A stretch of 64,000 bases of DNA from a virus. Lineage: Duplodnaviria > Caudoviricetes. The notes under the pieces were generated by a model. It had not been told where the DNA came from and made no database searches. It saw only the letters and a program-made list of their open reading frames with translations. A program made the position numbers and the translations under genes. Below, piece after piece: positions 5,529 through 56,500 of the stretch. Location: positions 1 to 64,000 of IMG/VR virus record IMGVR_UViG_3300028549_001530. The stretch is one strand, 5' to 3'. Every line of letters starts with the position of its first letter. Position 1 is the stretch's first letter.

Positions 5529-6902
5529 ATGGCGATCGTTAAATTACAACCAGATCAATCACCACCTATAGTGGTTAATACACCAGAGACAATACAAGAA
5601 CCTAGTAAGTCTATATTTACATCACTAGTTCCTGAGTCAACTATTACTTCACTTCTTAAATATACAGAAGGTTATCCATGGAGTATTAATTATTACGGTC
5701 AACTTCTCAACGTTAATAACACACTAGAGAACTTTGATCCAACGACACCTAATCTAACACAACCATATTACTGTGTATCTGATATGGTTATACAAGTCTC
5801 TTCTCCTCTTAATAGTAACTATGACGCTAATACAGGAGTTACTTCAGTTAACGGTGTAGCGGTAATGCCATATAAGATAACGCCTAACGTAGGTGATGTC
5901 TTTATAGCTAAAGTAGATAACGGTGAAGATGCTATCTTTATTATAACAACTGTTTCAAGAAAAACTTACAGAAAAGACACTCTGTATGAAGTCTCTTACA
6001 ATTTATACGCTTACACTTCAGCCAACCCAACTTTTATTCCAATCTTAGAGCAAAGAGTTCAAGACACTTACTTCTTTAACAAAGACACTGATTTCTTTAA
6101 CAGAGATGTTCTTATTAAACCAAGTGTTAAAGAAGCTACTGATAGACTTAATGTATTTTTAAGAGAGTCGCAAGAGCACTATTTTGCCATCTTTGCTCAA
6201 AAAGAAATAGGTGGTATCACTATACCTGGTATGGGTAATACTGTTTACGATCCACTTCTTATTAATTTTATCAGTAAGATTGTTGACTACAACACTCTTG
6301 TAGATATTCCGTTTTATAAGTTCAGTCATAGCAACAATAGGTATATAGAGCAAAAGAGTATATTTGATGTTTTACTAACTAGAAGCACGTCTCTTCTTTC
6401 GACGATCAATAAAACTTATAACTTTGTTCCTACTAGTAGTATACCTAATAAGGCAAGACTAGGTACGTTATGGCACACTGGTATAGAGTATGTATTATTT
6501 CCTATGAATCCTAATAAGGATATGGAAATTACTGACATGACTTTAACGGCAACAGATATGCCAGTTATACCTCAGTTAAAGAATTCTAAAAATTACAGTA
6601 TGCCTGTTCCGCCTATCACCATTCAAACAAAGAACAACAATGAACTCTTTACTAAGCCTCTTTTACACGAACTATTCGTTAATGACTCCTACGTTGTGTC
6701 TGATAACTTCTATAACTATTTAACAGATAATAATACATATGAAAGTATAAGTTACATTGAGTTTTTGATCTATAAGTTTATCAACAGAGAAGCTATTGCT
6801 AAAGAGGATTTGTGTGTAGCTCTTGAAAGCTATACTAGTTGGTCACTTATGCATAAGCTTTATATTTTGCCTTTGCTTTGGCAGCTTGTGGTTAATTGCT
6901 AA
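5529..6902 (+). CDS. phiKZ-like virion structural protein (putative)
   Basis: 457-aa ORF with RBS. PNVGDVFIA-type motif recalled from jumbo-phage structural proteins. Confidence 0.55.
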   Translation: MAIVKLQPDQSPPIVVNTPETIQEPSKSIFTSLVPESTITSLLKYTEGYPWSINYYGQLLNVNNTLENFDPTTPNLTQPYYCVSDMVIQVSSPLNSNYDANTGVTSVNGVAVMPYKITPNVGDVFIAKVDNGEDAIFIITTVSRKTYRKDTLYEVSYNLYAYTSANPTFIPILEQRVQDTYFFNKDTDFFNRDVLIKPSVKEATDRLNVFLRESQEHYFAIFAQKEIGGITIPGMGNTVYDPLLINFISKIVDYNTLVDIPFYKFSHSNNRYIEQKSIFDVLLTRSTSLLSTINKTYNFVPTSSIPNKARLGTLWHTGIEYVLFPMNPNKDMEITDMTLTATDMPVIPQLKNSKNYSMPVPPITIQTKNNNELFTKPLLHELFVNDSYVVSDNFYNYLTDNNTYESISYIEFLIYKFINREAIAKEDLCVALESYTSWSLMHKLYILPLLWQLVVNC

Positions 6903-6932: not shown

Positions 6933-8045
6933 TTGGTAACACAAGAAGAATTTATAAATAGAGCGATTGAAATTCATGGTAATAAATATGATTATAGTAA
7001 AACGAAATTTAATGGATTCTTAAGAAAAATAAAAATAAACTGTAAAGTTCACGGAGAATTTGAACAATATCCACAACACCATTTGAGAGGAAGTGGTTGT
7101 AGTTACTGTGTTAATATGGTTAGATTGACTAATCAACAATTCATAGATAAAGCTAAATCTGTTCATGGTGATAAATATAGTTATTTTAAAACTGAATTTA
7201 AAGCACTTAAAATGAATATAACTATAACATGTCCTATTCATGGTGACTTTGAACAAAGATCAGATGTACATATAAATGGATCTGGTTGTCACGATTGTTT
7301 TAGTGACAGTAGAAAAAGTAATATGATTGAATTTATAGAAAAAGCTAGAGAAGTACATGGTGACAAATATGATTATAGTAAAATCAACTATATAAATAAA
7401 GAAACCAAGATAATTATAATCTGCCCTGTTCATGGTAGTTTTCAACAACGACCTGGTTCTCATTTATCTGGATCTGGTTGCAATAAATGCGGAGAAGATA
7501 GAACAAGATTACTACAAGACGAATTTATCACTAAAGCTAAATTAGTACATAATAATAGGTACAATTATGACAAAGTTAATTATATAAATACTAAGACTAG
7601 TGTCACTATTATATGTCCAATTCATGGTGAGTTTGAACAAATACCTAATAGACACTTAGCTGGAGCTGGGTGTTTTATTTGTAAAGCGTCTAAAGGTGAA
7701 CTAGCTATAAAAGCTATACTAGATAAACACAACATAGAACATGTACAAGAATATCGTATACCTGAAGTTATAGCTAGACTTTCTTATGATTTTTACATTC
7801 CGAAATATAGTCTACTTATAGAATTTCATGGCAAACAACACTATGAATATATACCACATTTTCACTATAATGATGAAGATAATTTTTTAAAGCAAAAGAA
7901 CAGAGATGACATGATTAGAAGTAATGCTAGTCAGTTTAAATATAGATACTTAGAGTTTAACTACAAACAACTTAAACACATGAGTAAAGATGAGTTTGAA
8001 GAGTTAGTAATAAATAAAATTAATTTATTTAAAAAGAAAGGTTAA
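6933..8045 (+). CDS. Free-standing homing-endonuclease-like protein: 4 Zn-binding repeats plus C-terminal PD-(D/E)xK-type domain
   Basis: 4x FIxKA..VHG.KYDYSK...CPxHG.F.Q....H..G.GC..C, then YDFYIP...IEFHGKQH; TTG start with AGGTG RBS. Confidence 0.8.
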   Translation: MVTQEEFINRAIEIHGNKYDYSKTKFNGFLRKIKINCKVHGEFEQYPQHHLRGSGCSYCVNMVRLTNQQFIDKAKSVHGDKYSYFKTEFKALKMNITITCPIHGDFEQRSDVHINGSGCHDCFSDSRKSNMIEFIEKAREVHGDKYDYSKINYINKETKIIIICPVHGSFQQRPGSHLSGSGCNKCGEDRTRLLQDEFITKAKLVHNNRYNYDKVNYINTKTSVTIICPIHGEFEQIPNRHLAGAGCFICKASKGELAIKAILDKHNIEHVQEYRIPEVIARLSYDFYIPKYSLLIEFHGKQHYEYIPHFHYNDEDNFLKQKNRDDMIRSNASQFKYRYLEFNYKQLKHMSKDEFEELVINKINLFKKKG

Positions 8046-18041: not shown

Positions 18042-19340
18042 ATGACCAACTTCATGAATCCACACCCAATGCGCCCACAAATGCCTATGAATATGCCACA
18101 GCGTCAACCTATGCAGCAGCAACCGTTTTACTATGATCAGTATGGTCGTGTTATTCAACAACCGATGCAGCAGCAACCTATGATGATGCAGCAACCAATG
18201 TATGCTAATCAGCAGCCTATGCAACAGATGTATCCTAATCAGCAGGGTATGCAGCAACCAATGATGCAGCAGCCTCAGGTTATGGTGGATCAGTATGGTC
18301 GTGTTATACCTATGCCGATGCAGCCAGGCATGGTTAACACTAATCAGCAATACATACCTAATCTACCACCACAACCTAATCGATTTGGGGATCCTTCTGT
18401 TACAACTAGGTTAACCTCTTCTACAGTCATTCAAGAAGATACCAGTAATCGCTATCAAACCCCACAACCTCAACCTGTCGAGAATAAACAAATGATTACA
18501 CTTCCTACACAAGCTTCTGATTTTACTGTTAAAGCAACGAGAGCACCTCTGTCTGTTTTAAACGATACGGTTACAGTTATAACAACAACTGAAGCTATTC
18601 GCCAAGAACAGTTAGTTATTCTTAACTTACCTGTATTAGCATATTCTTTCTCAGATGCGATTGAAAACATTATTGAGCATGTTTATACAGATGAAGATAA
18701 ATCAGCAATTAAAGCACAAACTGCTATCGTTTGTACTAATTATTATAACTGCACTGTGCAAGAAACTATCACAGAGTTTTTTGATATGAACATTAAGTCT
18801 TTCTATAAGGATTTTAAATCAGCTTATGCTGCTCTTAAGAATAAATACGACATCAATCTTTTTAACGATATTGATAAAATTATTACAAACCGTATTAACG
18901 ATTTCCTTGCAATCAATGTTAATAAAGAACTTAACATTGAGTCTTTTTCAACAGACTTTAATGAATTACTTAAACATCTACGTAACACAACAGAAACAGT
19001 CGAAGATGACTTGTGCAACCATATGGATAGTTATCTAAATTTACTTAATGAAAATAATAAACAAAAAATAGAAGGAGCTACTCCTAATTGTATCTCAATC
19101 ATACAAGAGCATAGCTTAGTCTACTTAGATAAATTAGAAGTAGAACTAGGTTTAACTGATGTAGATAGTTACACATTGAAGTTGTCTAATAGTCCTGTTA
19201 ATAATTTCATTAGGAGTTTAGCTGACTGTGCGTTTAACTCGTTCGAGCGCAATCGTTTTAATGTGATTACTGTAGACCGTAAAGTGTTTGAATTTATCTC
19301 TAATATAGAAGGTGATATTTTTATCACTAGGTTAGTTTAA
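18042..19340 (+). CDS. Hypothetical protein with Q/P/M-rich low-complexity N-terminus
   Basis: First ~110 aa are QQPMQQ-type repeats; AAGGAG RBS. Confidence 0.75.
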   Translation: MTNFMNPHPMRPQMPMNMPQRQPMQQQPFYYDQYGRVIQQPMQQQPMMMQQPMYANQQPMQQMYPNQQGMQQPMMQQPQVMVDQYGRVIPMPMQPGMVNTNQQYIPNLPPQPNRFGDPSVTTRLTSSTVIQEDTSNRYQTPQPQPVENKQMITLPTQASDFTVKATRAPLSVLNDTVTVITTTEAIRQEQLVILNLPVLAYSFSDAIENIIEHVYTDEDKSAIKAQTAIVCTNYYNCTVQETITEFFDMNIKSFYKDFKSAYAALKNKYDINLFNDIDKIITNRINDFLAINVNKELNIESFSTDFNELLKHLRNTTETVEDDLCNHMDSYLNLLNENNKQKIEGATPNCISIIQEHSLVYLDKLEVELGLTDVDSYTLKLSNSPVNNFIRSLADCAFNSFERNRFNVITVDRKVFEFISNIEGDIFITRLV

Positions 19341-19349
19341 TCAGATTCA

Positions 19350-19390
19350 GAAAAACCCTACCAAGCCTTTAACAGCTTGGTAGGGTTTTC
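19350..19390. terminator. Bidirectional terminator between convergent genes
   Basis: gaaaaaccctaccaagc-ctttaaca-gcttggtagggttttc. Confidence 0.75.
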
Positions 19391-19399
19391 TTTTTTGGT

Positions 19400-19795
19400 T
19401 TAGAGCTCTAAACTAAGATCGTCGTCTGTTGGCTCAGCATCTCCTTCTTCTTCACCTGACGACTCTGAAGAATTGTTGCTTGAAATGTCTGTAGAACCTT
19501 CACCGGTGACATTCTCTAAGTCTTTATTAACAGCAAGTTTAAACTTCTGCATAATGTTTAAAAGCTTATTGCTATTACGCATTGTGGATGTTAAGTGGTC
19601 ACTCACCATATCTAACATGTTGTCAACTTCATCCTTGTTGTTGTTACCAAATTCTAATACCTCAGAGTAATAGTTATTGGCACTACACCATTTTCTAAGA
19701 AGGAAGTTCTTATAGATAGCTTTAATTGTGTCAATCTGAGCTGACAATTCTCCTGAAATGGAGTCACTAAATATTTCTGGTGATATGGTGTGTTC
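19400..19795 (-). pseudogene. Orphan diverged copy of the portal C-terminus (~130 codons, no clear start)
   Basis: HTISPEIFSDSISGELSAQIDTIKAIYKNFLLRKWCSANNYYSE...DDDLSLEL aligns with portal STLSNEALALMSNESGYSIDDVKNVYRGYLLRKWCTDNNYFTE...EDDLNLNF. Confidence 0.85.
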
Positions 19796-20015
19796 AATAA
19801 CTAATACTTTGATATACTTGGTATATCTATTGTTAATAACCTTTAGACAGAAAGAAATTTATGCAAACAAAACACACCACCAATGTCTCCAATGAGAAAC
19901 CCAAACTTATATATGGTGGTAAATATGACTATATTAAGGTAAACTATAAAAAGTTGCGTAATCATGACGATAACAGTTCTAAACAAAAAGTAAACTTACA
20001 TGTAGAAACAACTTT

Positions 20016-21170
20016 ATGCCAAAGAAACTAGTAACTGAAATATTTATAGAAAAAGCCAAAAAGGTACATGGTGATAAGTACGACTATAGTAAAGTTAATT
20101 ATACAGGTGGTCATAACAAAGTAACTATCATATGCCCTATCCATGGTGAGTTTGAACAAACACCAGCTAACCACTTACAGGGTAAAGGTTGCTATAAGTG
20201 TAGAAATAATTACATTAAAAAAATTAAAATTCATTCTGTTGATCAGTTTATAGAAAAAGCCAGAAAAGTGCATGGCGATAGGTACGACTATAGTAAGGTG
20301 GTGTATGTAAACTCAAACACTAAAGTAACTATCATATGTCCTATACATGGTGAGTTTGAACAAGTCGCAAAATTACACTTAGAGGGATATGGATGTAAAG
20401 TGTGTGGTAATGATTTTGGTTCAATAAAAAGAACATTAACTACCGAAGAGTTTATAGAAAAAGCCAAAAAGGTACATGGTGATAAGTACGACTATAGTAA
20501 ACTTGTTTATATAGATCGTTGGACTAAAGTTAAAATTATATGTCCTATACATGGTGAATTTAAACAAGCACCGTATGCTCATTTAAACGGTAGTGGGTGT
20601 AGGAAATGTGGGACAGAAATAACAATAAACCTTAAACGATCTAACACACAAAAATTTATAGAAAGGGCAAAAGCTATACATGGTGACAAATATGACTATA
20701 GTAAGGCGGTGTATGTTAATAATAGAGTTAAAGTTATTATTGTATGCCCTATACATGGTGAATTTGAACAAGCACCTAATAATCATATTGAGGGACAAGG
20801 TTGTCCTATTTGTAATGCGTCTAAAGGTGAGTTAGCTATTAAAGATATATTAAATGAATGTGGTATAAAATACGTACAGCAATACATAATCCCAAACTTA
20901 GTTTGTTTTTTACGATATGACTTTTATTTACCAGAACTTAACACACTTATAGAGTTTCACGGTATACAACATTATAAATATATACCATTTTTTCACAGAA
21001 ATGGTGAAGATGACTTTTTAAAGCAAAAAAACAGAGATGATATCGTCAGAAGTAATGCTAGGCAGTTTAAGTACAGATACCTAGAGTTTAACTATACACA
21101 ACTTAAATATATGACTAAAGATAAATTTAAAAATTTAATAATAGAGAAATTAAATAACTTTAAAACTTAA
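20016..21170 (+). CDS. Free-standing homing-endonuclease-like protein, paralog of 6933-8045
   Basis: 4 Zn repeats plus a very similar C-terminal nuclease domain (ASKGELAIK...YDFY...IEFHG.QH...FLKQKNRDD). Confidence 0.82.
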   Translation: MPKKLVTEIFIEKAKKVHGDKYDYSKVNYTGGHNKVTIICPIHGEFEQTPANHLQGKGCYKCRNNYIKKIKIHSVDQFIEKARKVHGDRYDYSKVVYVNSNTKVTIICPIHGEFEQVAKLHLEGYGCKVCGNDFGSIKRTLTTEEFIEKAKKVHGDKYDYSKLVYIDRWTKVKIICPIHGEFKQAPYAHLNGSGCRKCGTEITINLKRSNTQKFIERAKAIHGDKYDYSKAVYVNNRVKVIIVCPIHGEFEQAPNNHIEGQGCPICNASKGELAIKDILNECGIKYVQQYIIPNLVCFLRYDFYLPELNTLIEFHGIQHYKYIPFFHRNGEDDFLKQKNRDDIVRSNARQFKYRYLEFNYTQLKYMTKDKFKNLIIEKLNNFKT

Positions 21171-21177
21171 GAAAGTA

Positions 21178-21210
21178 ATCCATAGCTACTTTAATAAAGT
21201 AGCTATGGAT
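21178..21210. terminator. Bidirectional terminator
   Basis: atccatagctacttt-aat-aaagtagctatggat between convergent genes. Confidence 0.75.
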
Positions 21211-21214
21211 CTTA

Positions 21215-23788
21215 TTAAAAGTTTAAATTTAAATCGTCCTCACTTGGCTCGGAACTTTCACCATCATCGGAATCTTTAGTGTCTGTGTCTGAGCTATCTG
21301 TGTTAGGACTATCAGACACAGAAGTTCCCTCAGTGTCACCAGTTATGTTTATATAGTCTTTACCAATAGCTAATTTATACTTTTGTAGCATTGCTATAAG
21401 TTTAATATTATTTCTACCTGTTATCGTTAAATGTTCGGTAATGTTAGTCAATGTTTCTTCAATTTCAGAAGGAACGTTAGATGAGATACCAAAAGCTTCT
21501 GTAAAATAATTATTATCAGTACACCATTTTCTTAACAAGTAACCACGATACACATTTTTTACGTCATCAATACTATAACCAGACTCGTTAGACATTAAAG
21601 CTAAAGCTTCATTGGATAGTGTTGAATTCATTACTTTGTCCAATCCTTCAGCATAGGTGTCAAATTCAACTGCCAAGTTAGCAAGATTAGTATTTTCTGG
21701 CCTTGGTAACTCAATTATAATTTTTTCTGAAAGAGTGTCTATAAAGGTATTTATAAAACCTTCCTGATCTTTAGCGTAGAGTTGTTTACTCTCTTCATCT
21801 AAGTTCTCTGTTAGCTCATTGATATTGTCTAAGATATCTTTCTTTAAAATAGCTCTCATGTCTTCATCGTTAAAGATCACAATACTTAAGAGTTTGTTTA
21901 CGTGTTTAATAAGCTTGTTCTGATACACTACAACGCGTTTAGAAAGCAGGATATTGTTATTGACTACAGTGGTAGCAAAATCTGGACTAAAGCCATTGTC
22001 GACTGTTTCAGGAGATAGTCCTAAAGCGATAATAGTTTGTTTGCGAAGTTCTTCTTCTAAATCAGAACTAGGAATAGTGTGTTGAATATTTGAGTTTTCA
22101 AAGTCAATCTTAACATTAGGAATAAGTGGATTATTTTCATAACTAAATTGTAAACCAGCTTTTTGAATCCAGTTAAGAAGATCTACTGGATTATTAATAC
22201 CTAGTGGAAAGTAATTTTGTCTTAGTTTAAGAACAGAGTCTTGAATCTGCTCAATAGTTTTCTCTGGGTCAGGGTCATTAGGATCTAAAGAGATATTGAC
22301 TTTAGTGACATCAATAGACTGCTTAGAGTAAGCCATAATCTTAGAAAATAGTAATATAGCTCTTAGACTAGATAACACTGAGAGGTTTTCTAATAGGGAC
22401 TTACCTATCCCTATTTCGTTATAATAGAAAGCAAAATAAACTACTAACTCTTTAGGAATAAAAAGCATGTTAGTTTTTTGGTCAGCTAATGCTCTTGTGA
22501 ACATCATAAAGTAGATCTCGTTCTTATTAGCGATTTCTACGTTAGAGCCGTATAAGCTATTCTTAATAGAGGTATAGAGTTGCTTCTCTAAAACATCTTT
22601 GTACATATCAAAGAGTTGATTCACATCTATGTTTTTAGTGCTATCAGTGACTAAGTTATTATAAGCTTTTTGCACAGGAGACAACTGTGTCATCGTAGAC
22701 ATAGACGAATTGCTATTAGAGGCTTGATTAAAGTTAGAACCTTTTAGCTCTGTACTAAGAGGTTTACCTGACTCATCTAGTAGTACAAAATAACCAATAT
22801 GACTTGTCTCGTCTCCTGGAATAAATACAGGAATAACTGACTCAGTTGGGATCTTAACCGTCATAGGTCTACCCATAGACTTACGAGTTGTATCTGACTT
22901 TTGTTTAATGAATTCAATTTCTTTGTATTGATGAGTAGAGCCTTTTTGTCGGAAAATATCAATGTAGTCCAGTTTATCTAAAGACTCTTGAGCAATGCCA
23001 ACGTTTCTCTTTAAAGCGCTTTTAATAACTGATTGGCTTAACTTGTCTTTGAGTTGTGCAAACTTAAAGATATTGACATTATCTGTAACATTGACAAAAG
23101 AGCTAGATACTAAATGTTCTACAAACTTATTACCTGTAAGACCAACCTCTTCTAGTGAGATGTTTTTTGTCACTGCTGGTTTAAGAATATTAACAGGTCG
23201 AGTGATGCTGTGCATGACTGTATCGACTTTACTCTTAAACTCCTCAGTAGAATAAGAAGGTAACAAATCTGTATTGATCAAGTCATCCACAGAAGACTCT
23301 GGTATAACCGCTAAAACATAAGCACCTGTACTAAAGAGTGCTTCTCGAATAATCTCTGGTAATTTTTCTTCTATTTCATAAGTATCATTCATGTATGTCT
23401 TGATTTTCTCAAGCATACCTGCTGTAACTATTGGGTTAATATTTAATGTTTTATCAAGTTTATAATTGAGCTGAATGTCAGTCATCTTCTTAGGGCTAAG
23501 AATAGAGCTAACTAGAATTTGAATGCTTAATTCAATATCAGGAAATAGTTTAGTGATGTTCTCGTTATTTTGTTTAAGAGACCGAATGCGCGTATAAATA
23601 GACTCTAATAATGATCTATTTATGTTTAGTCTGTCATCTTCAGAATTAAAAGGTTTAGCTTTATCTCTAACTAGCTTAGGTAAAATAGGAAGTACCTTTG
23701 GGTTAGATTCAATAATCTTACTAGCTAATAGTTTTTTGTTTTTTTTTTGATTAATAATATCAACGAGGTTATTAGGTGAAACTGGCAT
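21215..23788 (-). CDS. Portal protein (phiKZ gp129-like)
   Basis: 857 aa, LFPDIEL..QILVSSILSP, IPxESVIPV, GYFVLLDESG and GLSPETVD motifs recalled from phiKZ-like portals; synteny. Confidence 0.75.
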   Translation of the reverse strand: MPVSPNNLVDIINQKKNKKLLASKIIESNPKVLPILPKLVRDKAKPFNSEDDRLNINRSLLESIYTRIRSLKQNNENITKLFPDIELSIQILVSSILSPKKMTDIQLNYKLDKTLNINPIVTAGMLEKIKTYMNDTYEIEEKLPEIIREALFSTGAYVLAVIPESSVDDLINTDLLPSYSTEEFKSKVDTVMHSITRPVNILKPAVTKNISLEEVGLTGNKFVEHLVSSSFVNVTDNVNIFKFAQLKDKLSQSVIKSALKRNVGIAQESLDKLDYIDIFRQKGSTHQYKEIEFIKQKSDTTRKSMGRPMTVKIPTESVIPVFIPGDETSHIGYFVLLDESGKPLSTELKGSNFNQASNSNSSMSTMTQLSPVQKAYNNLVTDSTKNIDVNQLFDMYKDVLEKQLYTSIKNSLYGSNVEIANKNEIYFMMFTRALADQKTNMLFIPKELVVYFAFYYNEIGIGKSLLENLSVLSSLRAILLFSKIMAYSKQSIDVTKVNISLDPNDPDPEKTIEQIQDSVLKLRQNYFPLGINNPVDLLNWIQKAGLQFSYENNPLIPNVKIDFENSNIQHTIPSSDLEEELRKQTIIALGLSPETVDNGFSPDFATTVVNNNILLSKRVVVYQNKLIKHVNKLLSIVIFNDEDMRAILKKDILDNINELTENLDEESKQLYAKDQEGFINTFIDTLSEKIIIELPRPENTNLANLAVEFDTYAEGLDKVMNSTLSNEALALMSNESGYSIDDVKNVYRGYLLRKWCTDNNYFTEAFGISSNVPSEIEETLTNITEHLTITGRNNIKLIAMLQKYKLAIGKDYINITGDTEGTSVSDSPNTDSSDTDTKDSDDGESSEPSEDDLNLNF

Positions 23789-54864: not shown

Positions 54865-54884
54865 GTTACTCAGTCATATAGGCT
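54714..54884 (+). ncRNA. TnpB omega/reRNA plus guide GTTACTCAGTCATATAGGCT
   Basis: Conserved 3' scaffold, guide taken from the right flank. Confidence 0.75.
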
Positions 54885-56500
54885 AAAACAGCATCTAATG
54901 TATCAATACTGGCACTGAAAAAGAACTTGTTTTCAGCTGATATGTAGTATTCCTTCTTCTTTAGCTGTTGATTTACCTCGGCTATTGAATCATCCGTAAG
55001 CAGCGCTATAACGGAGATGGTGTCACCATCAACGTCAGAACCAAGACCACCATAATGACTTGTATGGACTGCAGTTGTATTGAAGAAATCAGAGTCTCTA
55101 ATAGGGAATGAGTAAGCTAAACTGCCAGTAGGAGTCCAGTCACTTCCAAGCTCCTCTAAAGACTCATACTTGTTAGTTGTTTTAAGCTTCATCATACTTG
55201 GGTAAATACTACCATATCCAGTAATAGGGTATCGAGTAATAAGTCCAGGAATCTTACCACTTAAATGATAGATAGAAATATACAAGAACTCTGCCATTGT
55301 GATAGGAGAAACACGCTCTTTACTATAACCTTCTGGCAACTCATCGATATCTTGCATAAACCTAAAGTACTTCTCATCCTTATAGATCAAACCAAGGTAG
55401 TGTTTACCTTTATTAAGAACAATAGGGGTATGGCGAATATCGAGGTTACCAAAGTTTGCTAATACCTTCTCCAAGCCATCAGAACTCGTCCAGAGGTCAT
55501 AATCTTTCTGGATGTGTGTATTGAGTACCTCTTCCTTCTTTAACGTCTTAGCGTTCGTTAAAATAGCAAAGGTGGTATTCTCAATAAAAATGTCTTTGAT
55601 GTACCTACTCTTAATCTCGTACAAAGACTTAGGAACAATAGCTCTTAAGAATTGGTGCAGTCCAACATAGCACTCATTGTACCCAAGTCTATTAGGATCG
55701 TTGATGTTATTGACTTTCTCAATACTGCCTGAGAGAACATTACGAGTAGAATTGAAGACTTTACGAGAAAGCCACTTACTAAGAATAAGTTTATGCTTGC
55801 CTTCTAGTAGAGACTTAATATACTCAAATAAGTCTAAAGTTATGTTTTGTAGACCTTTACGGATATTGTCATACACTTCTGGTGTTTTACGAGCGAGTTG
55901 TTTATCAATTAGAGAGGTTTGAAAGAGAAGTTTTCTATAGAAGGTGTTAACTTCATCTTCTTGGGGTTTGCCTGAAGCATCAATAGTATAGTCTCTGATA
56001 CCTGCTGGAAGAACTAGCATATACTTTAAGATGTACTTATTTTCTTTGATGGCTTTTTTGTAAAGCTGAATAAGGAAAGATCTCTGTTCAGACTGTGTTT
56101 CTTCAAAGACGAGTTCATGTGCATGTTTAAAGAAGAAAGAGTAACCAGTATCGGCACCTTCTTCATTAGACTTAATGAAAGCCTTTGTTTTATCATCCCA
56201 TAGTGCTAGAGTGGTGCCTTGTGCTATATCTTTGTAGAAAGACTTTAAACTAACAATAGTATCATAAATAAGAGGGTGGATTAACTCTACTTTTAAGTCT
56301 ATATAAGCAAAAGCAGTCCCACGGTATGAGGTACCTACGGTACCCCAAATACGGTTAGAAAATAGTCCATCTGGCGCAAAGTTACCAGACTGATCAAAGA
56401 TCTGAACGTCTGAGACTTGTTGAAGTTTTTGAATACTGTTATCATCTACATAAAGTAATTCTATATTGACAGGCAGTTTTTGTAATGTGGTTAAGTCCAA
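54866..56500 (-). CDS. Virion RNA polymerase beta'-like subunit (phiKZ gp180-like)
   Basis: DGLFS..IWG, VLPAGIRD, LEGK and RYP motifs and catalytic-type SDVDGD; adjacent to the tape-measure region as in phiKZ; TTG start with AAGGAG RBS. Confidence 0.85.
   Translation of the reverse strand: MDLTTLQKLPVNIELLYVDDNSIQKLQQVSDVQIFDQSGNFAPDGLFSNRIWGTVGTSYRGTAFAYIDLKVELIHPLIYDTIVSLKSFYKDIAQGTTLALWDDKTKAFIKSNEEGADTGYSFFFKHAHELVFEETQSEQRSFLIQLYKKAIKENKYILKYMLVLPAGIRDYTIDASGKPQEDEVNTFYRKLLFQTSLIDKQLARKTPEVYDNIRKGLQNITLDLFEYIKSLLEGKHKLILSKWLSRKVFNSTRNVLSGSIEKVNNINDPNRLGYNECYVGLHQFLRAIVPKSLYEIKSRYIKDIFIENTTFAILTNAKTLKKEEVLNTHIQKDYDLWTSSDGLEKVLANFGNLDIRHTPIVLNKGKHYLGLIYKDEKYFRFMQDIDELPEGYSKERVSPITMAEFLYISIYHLSGKIPGLITRYPITGYGSIYPSMMKLKTTNKYESLEELGSDWTPTGSLAYSFPIRDSDFFNTTAVHTSHYGGLGSDVDGDTISVIALLTDDSIAEVNQQLKKKEYYISAENKFFFSASIDTLDAVLAYMTE

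What the first reader, a model, noticed from the sequence alone, without database searches (positions are those of the whole stretch)
19400..21625. Portal gene 3' end duplicated around an antisense endonuclease: possible C-terminus replacement by a homing element
The - strand reads: full portal (own C-terminus, terminator 21178-21210), then an opposite-strand Zn-repeat nuclease, then a second diverged portal C-terminus (19400-~19795, open for ~130 codons, own terminator 19350-19390). Homology stops abruptly near HTISPE/STLSNE. The simplest model is that the nuclease invaded with a foreign, cleavage-resistant portal 3' end, regenerating the gene and displacing the native end. This resembles HEG-plus-exon cassettes in organellar genomes but here in an essential head gene. 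That the orphan remains open leaves alternative use possible (recombinational switching or an independent peptide).
Basis: partly seen in the sequence, partly recalled or inferred. Interest (0 to 1): 0.75.

Follow-up and report, generated by a model that had tools for sequence, protein, structure and literature searches.

The report
Homing nuclease swapped phage portal end
A selfish DNA-cutting gene entered the essential portal gene of a giant phage together with a foreign replacement for the gene's last ~150 codons, and left the original end stranded downstream; this trick is known from fungal mitochondria and yeast, and a near-identical phage portal that still has its original end shows the state before the swap.

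Summary
On the - strand lie, in order:
- an 857-aa phiKZ-type portal gene with its own terminator;
- an opposite-strand nuclease gene;
- a second portal 3' end, homologous over 131 codons and open for 152, with its own terminator.

- A sister portal from public data (P0002) is 93-100% identical to the window's portal up to residue ~706. It is only 25-53% identical after that.
- The stranded end is 78-80% identical to P0002's own C-terminus and is its sister in a tree. So the orphan is the native end and the attached end is foreign. No donor was found.
- Four nuclease-free relatives have a single end, with the downstream gene directly after it.
- The nuclease has four zinc-finger repeats plus a Vsr-like catalytic domain. 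The best fold match is the homing endonuclease I-Bth0305I (EDxHD family).

The orphan looks like a recent relic. It has no ATG, its only candidate start is a badly spaced TTG, and it sits behind a strong terminator and antisense to the nuclease. It is not visibly decayed, so function is not excluded.

Cleavage of the portal gene by the nuclease is inferred, not shown.

This matches fungal mORF hybrids and yeast WHO elements.

The parts
21668..23788 (-). Portal gene, native part (codons 1 to ~707). The switch from native to foreign sequence lies somewhere in codons 689-707 (21668-21724), inside the conserved I-I-I-E-L-P-R-P-E-N-T-N-L-A-N-L motif.
   Evidence: Identity to sister portal P0002 is 93-100% per 30-residue bin. 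PDB 9xpe PHIKZ129 matches at E 6e-89.
21215..21667 (-). Portal gene, foreign C-terminal part (codons ~708-857 plus stop). In the model it is three long helices followed by a disordered acidic tail.
   Evidence: Identity to P0002 is 25-53%. The best match anywhere is 42%. The tree branch is 1.75 changes per site. It keeps 10 of 11 family-wide conserved residues. The AF2 model has helices 702-723, 737-758 and 773-816, and the tail has pLDDT under 50.
21177..21211 (.). Hairpin terminator between the portal stop and the nuclease stop (convergent genes).
   Evidence: 16-pair perfect inverted repeat (I4).
20016..21170 (+). Free-standing homing-endonuclease gene, 384 aa. It has four zinc-finger repeats (20034-20849, 204 nt each) and a Vsr-like EDxHD catalytic domain (about 20787-21167).
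   Evidence: Pfam DUF4379 and DUF723 above their cut-offs; CapR (22.4 bits) just below its 24.2-bit cut-off. phrog_559, 681 and 9084. Repeats D1. AF2 pLDDT 90.8. Foldseek top hits are I-Bth0305I 3r3p at E 2.4e-4 and Vsr 1cw0. Invariant residues E23, D53, E64, H70 and D92 of the domain.
19861..19950 (+). Degenerate, out-of-frame relic of a nuclease 5' end (start codon plus the first half-repeat), just upstream of the live nuclease gene.
   Evidence: 52% identity over 29 aa to the nuclease N-terminus, E 2e-6. It is a fifth partial repeat copy, D2. DNA alignment.
19403..19825 (-). Displaced native portal 3' end (the orphan). Homology is clear from 19801 and weaker back to 19825. The stop codon is 19400-19402. 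The frame is open back to 19858.
   Evidence: 78% identity to the C-terminus of P0002 and 65% to P0003. tblastn places P0002 residues 709-848 on 19825-19403. It is sister to P0002 in the C-terminal tree at 90/90. It keeps 9 of 9 conserved residues.
19352..19389 (.). Native bidirectional terminator shared with the convergent 432-aa gene (18042-19340, +).
   Evidence: 15-pair perfect hairpin (I5). It resembles the hairpin after the AgentSmith portal gene.

Best explanation
A free-standing homing-endonuclease gene entered the portal gene of this phiKZ-like jumbo phage together with a foreign copy of the portal's last ~150 codons and its terminator. The enzyme has zinc-finger DNA-binding repeats and a Vsr-like EDxHD catalytic domain.

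Shown:
- The present portal is a hybrid. It is native up to about codon 707 and foreign after that.
- The native end lies about 1.84 kb downstream, starting within about 10 codons of the switch point. It sits where the gene end lies in nuclease-free relatives, next to its original terminator and the convergent neighbouring gene.

Inferred:
- In a mixed infection the nuclease cut a nuclease-free portal allele near codons 707-719.
- The upstream end of the break was repaired by copying from the donor, starting in the conserved ELPRPENTNLANL-coding stretch and running through the donor's portal end, terminator and nuclease gene.
- The downstream end was rejoined without, or with very short, homology. 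The recipient's own 3' end therefore stayed behind as a fragment.
- The new end keeps the portal working and presumably lacks the cut site.
- The orphan is most likely an unexpressed, young relic.
For: Hybrid gene: win vs P0002 is 93-100% identical per bin up to residue ~706 and 25-53% after it.

The orphan is the native end:
- It is 78-80% identical to P0002's end.
- The trees agree with this.
- P0002 residues 709-848 map to 19825-19403.

All parts are absent together from relatives. In AgentSmith, L002/L003 and L004 the portal stop lies about 50-65 nt from the convergent 420-460-aa gene, or has one small ORF between them. The orphan has a single match in AgentSmith, inside the portal gene.

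Nuclease identity and integrity. The I-Bth0305I paper is PMC3239194.

The family behaves as mobile DNA. It has 2713 places in 1095 phage records and up to 18 copies per genome. A paralog in this window is a plain intergenic insertion.

The same family sits beside displaced gene starts in two unrelated loci, L036 and L061.

The orphan is unlikely to be expressed:
- It has no ATG.
- Its only candidate start is a TTG with AGGAG 2 nt upstream, whereas this phage's genes use a 5-9 nt spacing.
- It lies behind the hairpin at 21177-21211 and antisense to the nuclease.

No intron RNA was found in the region.
Against: - No donor with a similar portal end was found. None of the 80 nearest nuclease relatives lies beside a portal gene. 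The joint arrival of the end and the nuclease therefore rests on adjacency and joint absence.
- Cleavage, the target site and resistance of the attached end are untested.
The breakpoints are known only to about 10-20 codons. Whether P0002's phage lacks a nuclease downstream is unknown.
- The orphan shows no decay at conserved positions (9 of 9 kept). A second variant with 5 amino-acid changes is also open. A young relic would look the same: each neutral substitution has only a 5% chance of making a stop.
Confidence: 0.85

Rival explanations
1. The architecture is as described, but the nuclease is a bystander. The foreign end and the nuclease gene came in by ordinary illegitimate or homeologous recombination between two phages, without a nuclease-made break in the portal gene.
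For: No cleavage data exist. The paralog at 6933-8045 sits between genes without any duplication. No donor arrangement was found.
Against: - The foreign end, terminator and nuclease form one contiguous 1.84-kb block that is absent from four relatives.
- The orphan begins at the switch point, as expected for a single break.
- The same nuclease family sits next to displaced gene starts in L036 and L061.
Confidence: 0.08
2. The orphan is kept for a purpose. It could be a separately made ~115-aa peptide, or a spare end that can be recombined back onto the portal (switching).
For: - The frame is open for 152 codons.
- All 9 family-wide conserved residues are kept.
- Gene callers predict a 115-aa protein. 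A second variant with 5 substitutions is also open.
- A relative-rate count by eye against P0002, with P0003 as outgroup, gives about 6 vs 4 changes, so there is no clear acceleration.
Against: - There is no ATG, and the SD spacing before the TTG is 2 nt.
- It lies downstream of a 16-pair terminator and antisense to the nuclease.
- It is absent as a separate gene from all nuclease-free relatives.
- The two ends share only 60% DNA identity and a longest common run of 13 nt, which is poor substrate for switching.
- No invertible or recombinase features were found.
- Staying open is expected for a young relic.
Confidence: 0.05
3. The second end arose by tandem duplication within this genome and the two copies then diverged, or it is a chimeric metagenome assembly.
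For: The window is a metagenome-assembled contig. The attached end groups loosely with the P0002/P0003 clade and shares the RKWC motif with it.
Against: - The attached end would need 1.75 changes per site while the rest of the gene changed by 0.027.
- The same portal, orphan and nuclease recur in independent assemblies from four sources.
- A nuclease gene lies between the copies.
Confidence: 0.02

Closest known systems
Mobile endonuclease ORFs (mORFs) that make 'gene hybrids' in fungal mitochondria: Allomyces macrogynus atp6, and Glomus atp6, atp9, cox2 and nad3 (PMC3630166, read)
   Same: - An endonuclease ORF is inserted near the 3' end of an essential gene.
- The inserted C-terminus is foreign and diverged.
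- The native C-terminus is left downstream and is most like the close relative's end.
- Trees place the native end with the relatives and the inserted end elsewhere.
   Different: - The mORF nucleases are LAGLIDADG or GIY-YIG enzymes, often in frame with the host gene and on the same strand.
- Here the enzyme is an EDxHD/Vsr-like nuclease with zinc-finger repeats, on the opposite strand, behind the host gene's own terminator.
- The host is a phage structural gene, not an organelle gene.
WHO homing elements at yeast FBA1 (bioRxiv 10.64898/2026.08.13.744650, read)
   Same: - Homing replaces the 3' part of the host gene with a version carried by the element.
- The old 3' part stays as a fragment beginning at the cut site.
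- Older nuclease copies decay beside it. The relic nuclease start at 19861-19950 may be a parallel.
   Different: - WHO nucleases are LAGLIDADG plus zinc finger, and cleavage and allele-specific resistance are shown by experiment.
- Here neither is tested, and only one displaced end is present.
I-Bth0305I and the EDxHD family of homing endonucleases (PMC3239194; PDB 3r3p)
   Same: - The Vsr-like catalytic fold is the best structural match.
- The domain has an invariant E, D, H, D constellation.
- The host is a phage.
- Free-standing members of the family are known.
   Different: - I-Bth0305I is intron-encoded in recA and has NUMOD/HTH DNA-binding regions.
- This protein is free-standing and uses 4 (or 7 in a variant) DUF723/DUF4379/CapR-type zinc-finger repeats.
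Free-standing phage homing endonucleases with co-conversion of flanking genes: T4 SegF/SegG 'intronless homing' (from my own knowledge) and ICP1 HEGs at recombination boundaries (PMC10055350)
   Same: - A free-standing nuclease gene lies beside the gene it presumably targets.
- Flanking donor sequence is carried along.
- The repeated Zn-finger DNA-binding domains vary in number through recombination.
   Different: - In those systems both flanks recombine homologously, so no stranded gene end is left.
- Here one junction is non-homologous and the native end survives.

Membership tests
phiKZ gp129-type portal protein | Full-length sequence homology to experimentally assigned portal proteins of phiKZ-like phages | tested here: met
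   PDB 9xpe PHIKZ129 at E 6e-89, covering residues 48-764. 'Portal Protein gp36' 11ed at E 2e-69, covering 299-843. phrog_3004 at E 7e-156.
EDxHD (Vsr-like) homing endonucleases | Vsr-like PD-(D/E)xK catalytic fold | tested here: met
   AF2 model of residues 250-384 has pLDDT 90.8. Foldseek top hits are 3r3p I-Bth0305I (E 2.4e-4, prob 1.00, TM 0.78 on the target) and Vsr 1cw0/1vsr.
EDxHD (Vsr-like) homing endonucleases | Conserved composite motif E, D, x, H, D of catalytic residues | tested here: met
   Invariant E23, D53, E64, H70 and D92 (domain numbering) across 54 homologues, all present in the window's protein. The order and identity of these residues fit the motif described in PMC3239194. 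Residue-by-residue superposition was not checked.
EDxHD (Vsr-like) homing endonucleases | Site-specific double-strand cleavage of the element-free allele, and homing | not testable with these tools
   No biochemical data. Mobility is inferred from presence/absence between relatives and from many copies across phages.
End-replacing homing elements (fungal mORF hybrids / yeast WHO elements) | Host gene is a hybrid: native 5' part, foreign 3' part next to the nuclease gene | tested here: met
   Identity to P0002 drops from 93-100% to 25-53% at residue ~707. Trees.
End-replacing homing elements (fungal mORF hybrids / yeast WHO elements) | Displaced native 3' fragment beyond the nuclease, beginning at the switch point | tested here: met
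   The orphan at 19825/19801-19403 equals P0002 residues 709/719-848. The switch lies in codons 689-707.
End-replacing homing elements (fungal mORF hybrids / yeast WHO elements) | Element-free alleles exist in close relatives | tested here: met
   P0002 carries the native-type end in frame. AgentSmith, L002/L003 and L004 lack both the nuclease and a second end.
End-replacing homing elements (fungal mORF hybrids / yeast WHO elements) | Nuclease cuts the element-free allele at that point and spares its own allele | not testable with these tools
   This needs a cleavage assay.
Yeast WHO elements (membership proper) | LAGLIDADG-type WHO nuclease | tested here: not met
   The catalytic domain is Vsr-like/EDxHD. 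The locus works like a WHO element but is not a member of that family.
Intron- or intein-borne homing endonuclease | Self-splicing RNA or in-frame intein around the nuclease gene | tested here: not met
   No group I or II intron match in 19000-22200, even at E up to 1. The nuclease is on the opposite strand and behind the portal's stop codon and terminator.

The most novel reading that the evidence does not exclude
The portal locus of this phage group is the site of a WHO-like arms race. Nuclease cassettes carrying different portal ends invade repeatedly. The relic nuclease start at 19861-19950 would be the trace of an earlier round. This traffic, rather than ordinary drift, would then drive the fast evolution of the portal's C-terminal helices. 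The intact orphan could also serve as a template that lets progeny revert or escape.
Probability: 0.15. Interest if true: 0.7.

Novelty: new variant of a known kind. Interest (0 to 1): 0.5.

Why it matters
It gives a clean natural before-and-after pair for a homing event in an essential virion gene of a jumbo phage.
- The native allele (P0002 type) and the invaded allele differ by one 1.84-kb block, so the likely cut site is narrowed to about 20 codons and can be tested directly.
- A portal can work with its last ~150 residues swapped for a version only ~40-45% identical. This is useful for understanding which parts of the phiKZ-type portal are modular.
- Gene-end replacement by selfish nucleases has been described for fungal mitochondria and yeast. 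Here it also shapes phage structural genes, and with a different nuclease family.
- In practice, such hybrids and stranded ends mislead gene callers (the orphan is predicted as a 115-aa protein in public databases) and portal-based phylogenies.

Tried and rejected
I therefore could not fetch the DNA or the neighbours of P0002, P0003 or the 1176-bp contig with the variant orphan P0005. I also could not compute dN/dS or look for reads that skip the insert.
- Donor search. A word-based search with the attached end found only itself. A full HMMER search of 1.84 billion representatives gave at best 42% identity, and that hit is an orphan-type sequence (P0005). A scan of viral contigs with an orphan 27-mer found nothing. 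None of the 80 nuclease-bearing IMG/VR loci has a portal nearby.
- Short portal-end proteins in public data (P0006, P0008, P0011, P0016, P0017, P0020, P0025). They lie on contigs of 1-6 kb, so they may be genes cut by a contig edge rather than further orphans. I cannot tell.
- DNA alignment of the breakpoint region with distant relatives was uninformative.
- Intron or intein reading: rejected (strand and terminator).
- Flank-duplication screen. Hits at L016, L085, L042 and L055 turned out to be tandem nuclease paralogs, not displaced ends.
- AF2 model of the whole portal monomer is only of moderate quality (pLDDT 65.7). I used it only for secondary structure.
- Pfam, NCBIfam and PDB sequence searches did not name the nuclease's catalytic domain. 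The PHROG label 'HNH endonuclease' is not borne out by the fold.


Full report
WHAT THE WINDOW IS. The window is the first 64 kb of an 88.6-kb IMG/VR viral contig, estimated 44% complete. It is AT-rich (about 31% GC). Its genes match phiKZ-like jumbo phages. The closest named relative is Bacillus phage vB_BspM_AgentSmith, whose portal is 59% identical.

These features lie on the - strand, in order:
- An 857-aa ORF at 21215-23788. It is a portal protein by sequence: PDB 9xpe 'PHIKZ129' at E 6e-89, 'Portal Protein gp36' at E 2e-69, and phrog_3004 at E 7e-156.
- A perfect 16-pair hairpin at 21177-21211.
- A 384-aa ORF on the + strand at 20016-21170.
- A second stretch (19403-19801) that matches the portal's last ~140 residues, at 37% identity and E 5e-27. 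It also matches the same part of the portal profile.
- A 15-pair hairpin at 19352-19389, followed by the convergent 432-aa gene at 18042-19340.

The second end is open for 152 codons, and 131 of these are clearly homologous. The chance of a 131-codon open frame in sequence of this composition is about 5e-5. The two copies are 1836 nt apart.

WHICH END IS NATIVE. A search with the orphan against longer proteins found three full-length portals: P0002 (848 aa, 78% identity over the whole orphan), P0003 (65%) and P0004 (48%).

P0002 is a very close sister of the window's portal. Identity per 30-residue bin is 93-100% up to residue ~706 (one variable bin at 62% and two at 85-87%). It then falls to 25-53% for the rest. 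The first difference after the conserved I-I-I-E-L-P-R-P-E-N-T-N-L-A-N-L stretch is at residue 707. The last 'ordinary' difference before it is at residue 688. The switch therefore lies in codons 689-707.

tblastn places P0002 residues 709-848 on window 19825-19403. The native gene is thus fully accounted for, as the N-terminal part plus the orphan, with at most about 10 codons scrambled at the junction.

The trees agree:
- The N-terminal part pairs with P0002 (100/99; branches 0.027 and 0.035).
- The orphan pairs with P0002's end (90/90; branches 0.16 and 0.087).
- The attached end sits on a branch of 1.75 changes per site with no supported partner.
- AU tests against forcing the attached end next to P0002 or next to the orphan gave p 0.06 and 0.09. 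These are suggestive but not formally significant on 137 columns.

In-situ duplication followed by divergence would need about a 65-fold rate difference within one gene, so I reject it.

RELATIVES WITHOUT THE INSERT. In AgentSmith (L001), two IMG/VR contigs (L002/L003) and a metagenome contig (L004), the portal stop is followed within about 50-65 nt (one small ORF in AgentSmith) by the convergent 420-460-aa gene and then the RNA polymerase beta-like gene. None has a nuclease or a second end. The orphan has a single match in AgentSmith, inside its portal gene. The hairpin after the orphan resembles the one after AgentSmith's portal gene.

WHERE THE FOREIGN END CAME FROM. Unknown.
- The attached end matched only its own cluster in the 90%-identity collection.
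- Its best match among 1.84 billion representatives is 42% identical, and that hit (P0005) is an orphan-type sequence, 5 residues different from the window's own.
- None of the 80 nearest nuclease relatives in IMG/VR lies within 4 kb of a portal gene.
- The attached end does look functional. It keeps 10 of 11 residues that are at least 75% conserved across portal ends. Three natural variants of the hybrid portal differ by 1-4 residues, none of them in the foreign part.
- In a moderate-quality AF2 model, the swapped part comprises most of helix 702-723, helices 737-758 and 773-816, two short helices, and a disordered acidic tail.

THE NUCLEASE.
- The N-terminal two-thirds is four 204-nt tandem repeats. 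They match the zinc-finger families DUF4379 and DUF723 above their cut-offs, and CapR just below its cut-off. These are the repeated DNA-binding domains described for phage homing endonucleases in PMC10055350.
- Sequence libraries did not name the C-terminal domain.
- An AF2 model built on 54 homologues (pLDDT 90.8) matched the catalytic domain of homing endonuclease I-Bth0305I best (3r3p, E 2.4e-4, probability 1.00), followed by Vsr.
- Invariant E, D, E, H and D residues fit the composite 'EDxHD' motif of that family (PMC3239194). The PHROG label 'HNH' is therefore misleading.
- The family has 2713 places in 1095 phage records, with up to 18 in one genome.
- A 57%-identical paralog lies at 6933-8045 of this window. 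It is a plain intergenic insertion between two genes that are adjacent in AgentSmith.
- Repeat number differs between contigs of the same phage: 4 repeats here and 7 in P0047.
- Just upstream of the live gene, at 19861-19950, lies an out-of-frame relic of a nuclease start (52% over 29 aa, E 2e-6).

IS THE NUCLEASE THE CAUSE? This is inferred. Three points support it:
- The foreign end, its terminator and the nuclease form one block that is absent from the relatives.
- The orphan starts where the hybrid switches, as expected from a single break.
- I screened the 80 IMG/VR nuclease loci for similarity between their two flanks, with the window as positive control (E 7e-25). Two unrelated loci show a nuclease of this family sitting between a stranded gene start and a gene with a replacement start. 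In L036, 31 codons with their own ribosome site are 79% identical to the new start. In L061 the gene is a 5'-3' exonuclease gene.

The proposed pathway is a cut near codons 707-719 and copying from the donor starting in the conserved motif. The downstream end is then rejoined without homology.

THE ORPHAN. It is probably not expressed.
- It has no ATG.
- Its only candidate start is the TTG at 19747, with AGGAG only 2 nt upstream. This phage's genes use a 5-9 nt spacing, and that G-G-A-G simply encodes the conserved Gly-Glu.
- It lies behind a strong terminator and antisense to the nuclease.

It is also not decayed.
- All 9 alignable conserved residues are kept.
- A by-eye relative-rate count against P0002 gives about 6 vs 4 changes.
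- A second natural variant with 5 amino-acid changes is also open.

Only about 5% of single-base changes here would create a stop. An open frame is therefore what a recent relic looks like, and the data cannot separate 'recent' from 'kept'. The two ends share 60% DNA identity and at most 13 identical bases in a row. There are no switch-like repeats, which argues against programmed switching. No intron RNA is present.

COMPARISON WITH WHAT IS KNOWN. The architecture matches the mORF 'gene hybrids' of fungal mitochondria (PMC3630166) and the WHO elements at yeast FBA1, where the old 3' part is left as a fragment beginning at the cut site (bioRxiv 10.64898/2026.08.13.744650).

It differs in three ways: the nuclease family (EDxHD with zinc-finger repeats, not LAGLIDADG or GIY-YIG), the orientation (opposite strand, behind the host gene's own terminator), and the host (a phage virion gene).

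Phage 'intronless homing' with co-conversion is the nearest phage precedent, but it leaves no stranded end. In six full-text searches I found no paper describing this for a phage. That is a limited search, not proof of absence. This scan has already noted the same pattern in at least eight other phage windows. I did not test those notes, and they neither raise nor lower the scores given here. The same genome also carries IsrB, TnpB, group I introns and inteins according to earlier notes.

VERDICT. This is a new variant of a known kind of selfish element. It has a well-defined element-free sister allele, which makes the cut site testable.

LIMITS. No donor was found, and there is no biochemistry.

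Noticed in passing
window 6933-8045 (+): A second nuclease of the same family (370 aa, 57% identical, four Zn repeats). It is inserted cleanly between a 457-aa virion protein gene and a 181-aa gene that are adjacent in AgentSmith. No duplicated gene end is present here.
   Followed up: yes
window 19861-19950 (+): An out-of-frame relic of a nuclease start codon and first half-repeat lies directly upstream of the live nuclease gene. It may be the trace of an older nuclease copy or of a repeat-mediated rearrangement.
   Followed up: partly
window 20034-20849; proteins P0046, P0047, P0048, P0049: The number of 68-aa zinc-finger repeats in the nuclease differs between contigs of the same phage: 4 here and 7 in a 584-aa variant. 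This is either real repeat recombination, as reported for ICP1 HEGs, or assembly collapse.
   Followed up: partly
L036:3876-5100 and L061:3836-5230: In two unrelated IMG/VR phage contigs, a nuclease of the same family sits between a stranded gene start (31 codons with its own ribosome site in L036) and a downstream gene whose start is a 74-79% identical replacement. In L061 that gene is a 5'-3' exonuclease.
   Followed up: partly
L015:3905-3951 and 5632-5678: A 45-nt perfect direct repeat flanks another nuclease of this family. It could be a duplicated intergenic or target segment.
   Followed up: no
window 19994-20015: The nuclease ATG at 20016 has no recognisable Shine-Dalgarno sequence, unlike most genes of this phage, which have AGGAG or AAGGA at 5-9 nt. 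Translation may be weak or coupled to something else.
   Followed up: no
proteins P0020 (91 aa) and P0025 (109 aa), on public contigs of 1-2 kb: These are short predicted proteins that consist only of a portal C-terminus from related phages. They could be further stranded portal ends or just genes cut by contig edges.
   Followed up: partly
window 54866-56020 (-): Another ORF of exactly 384 aa. It is not similar to the nuclease, since it did not appear in the own-genome search. Earlier notes of this scan place a TnpB element in this area.
   Followed up: no
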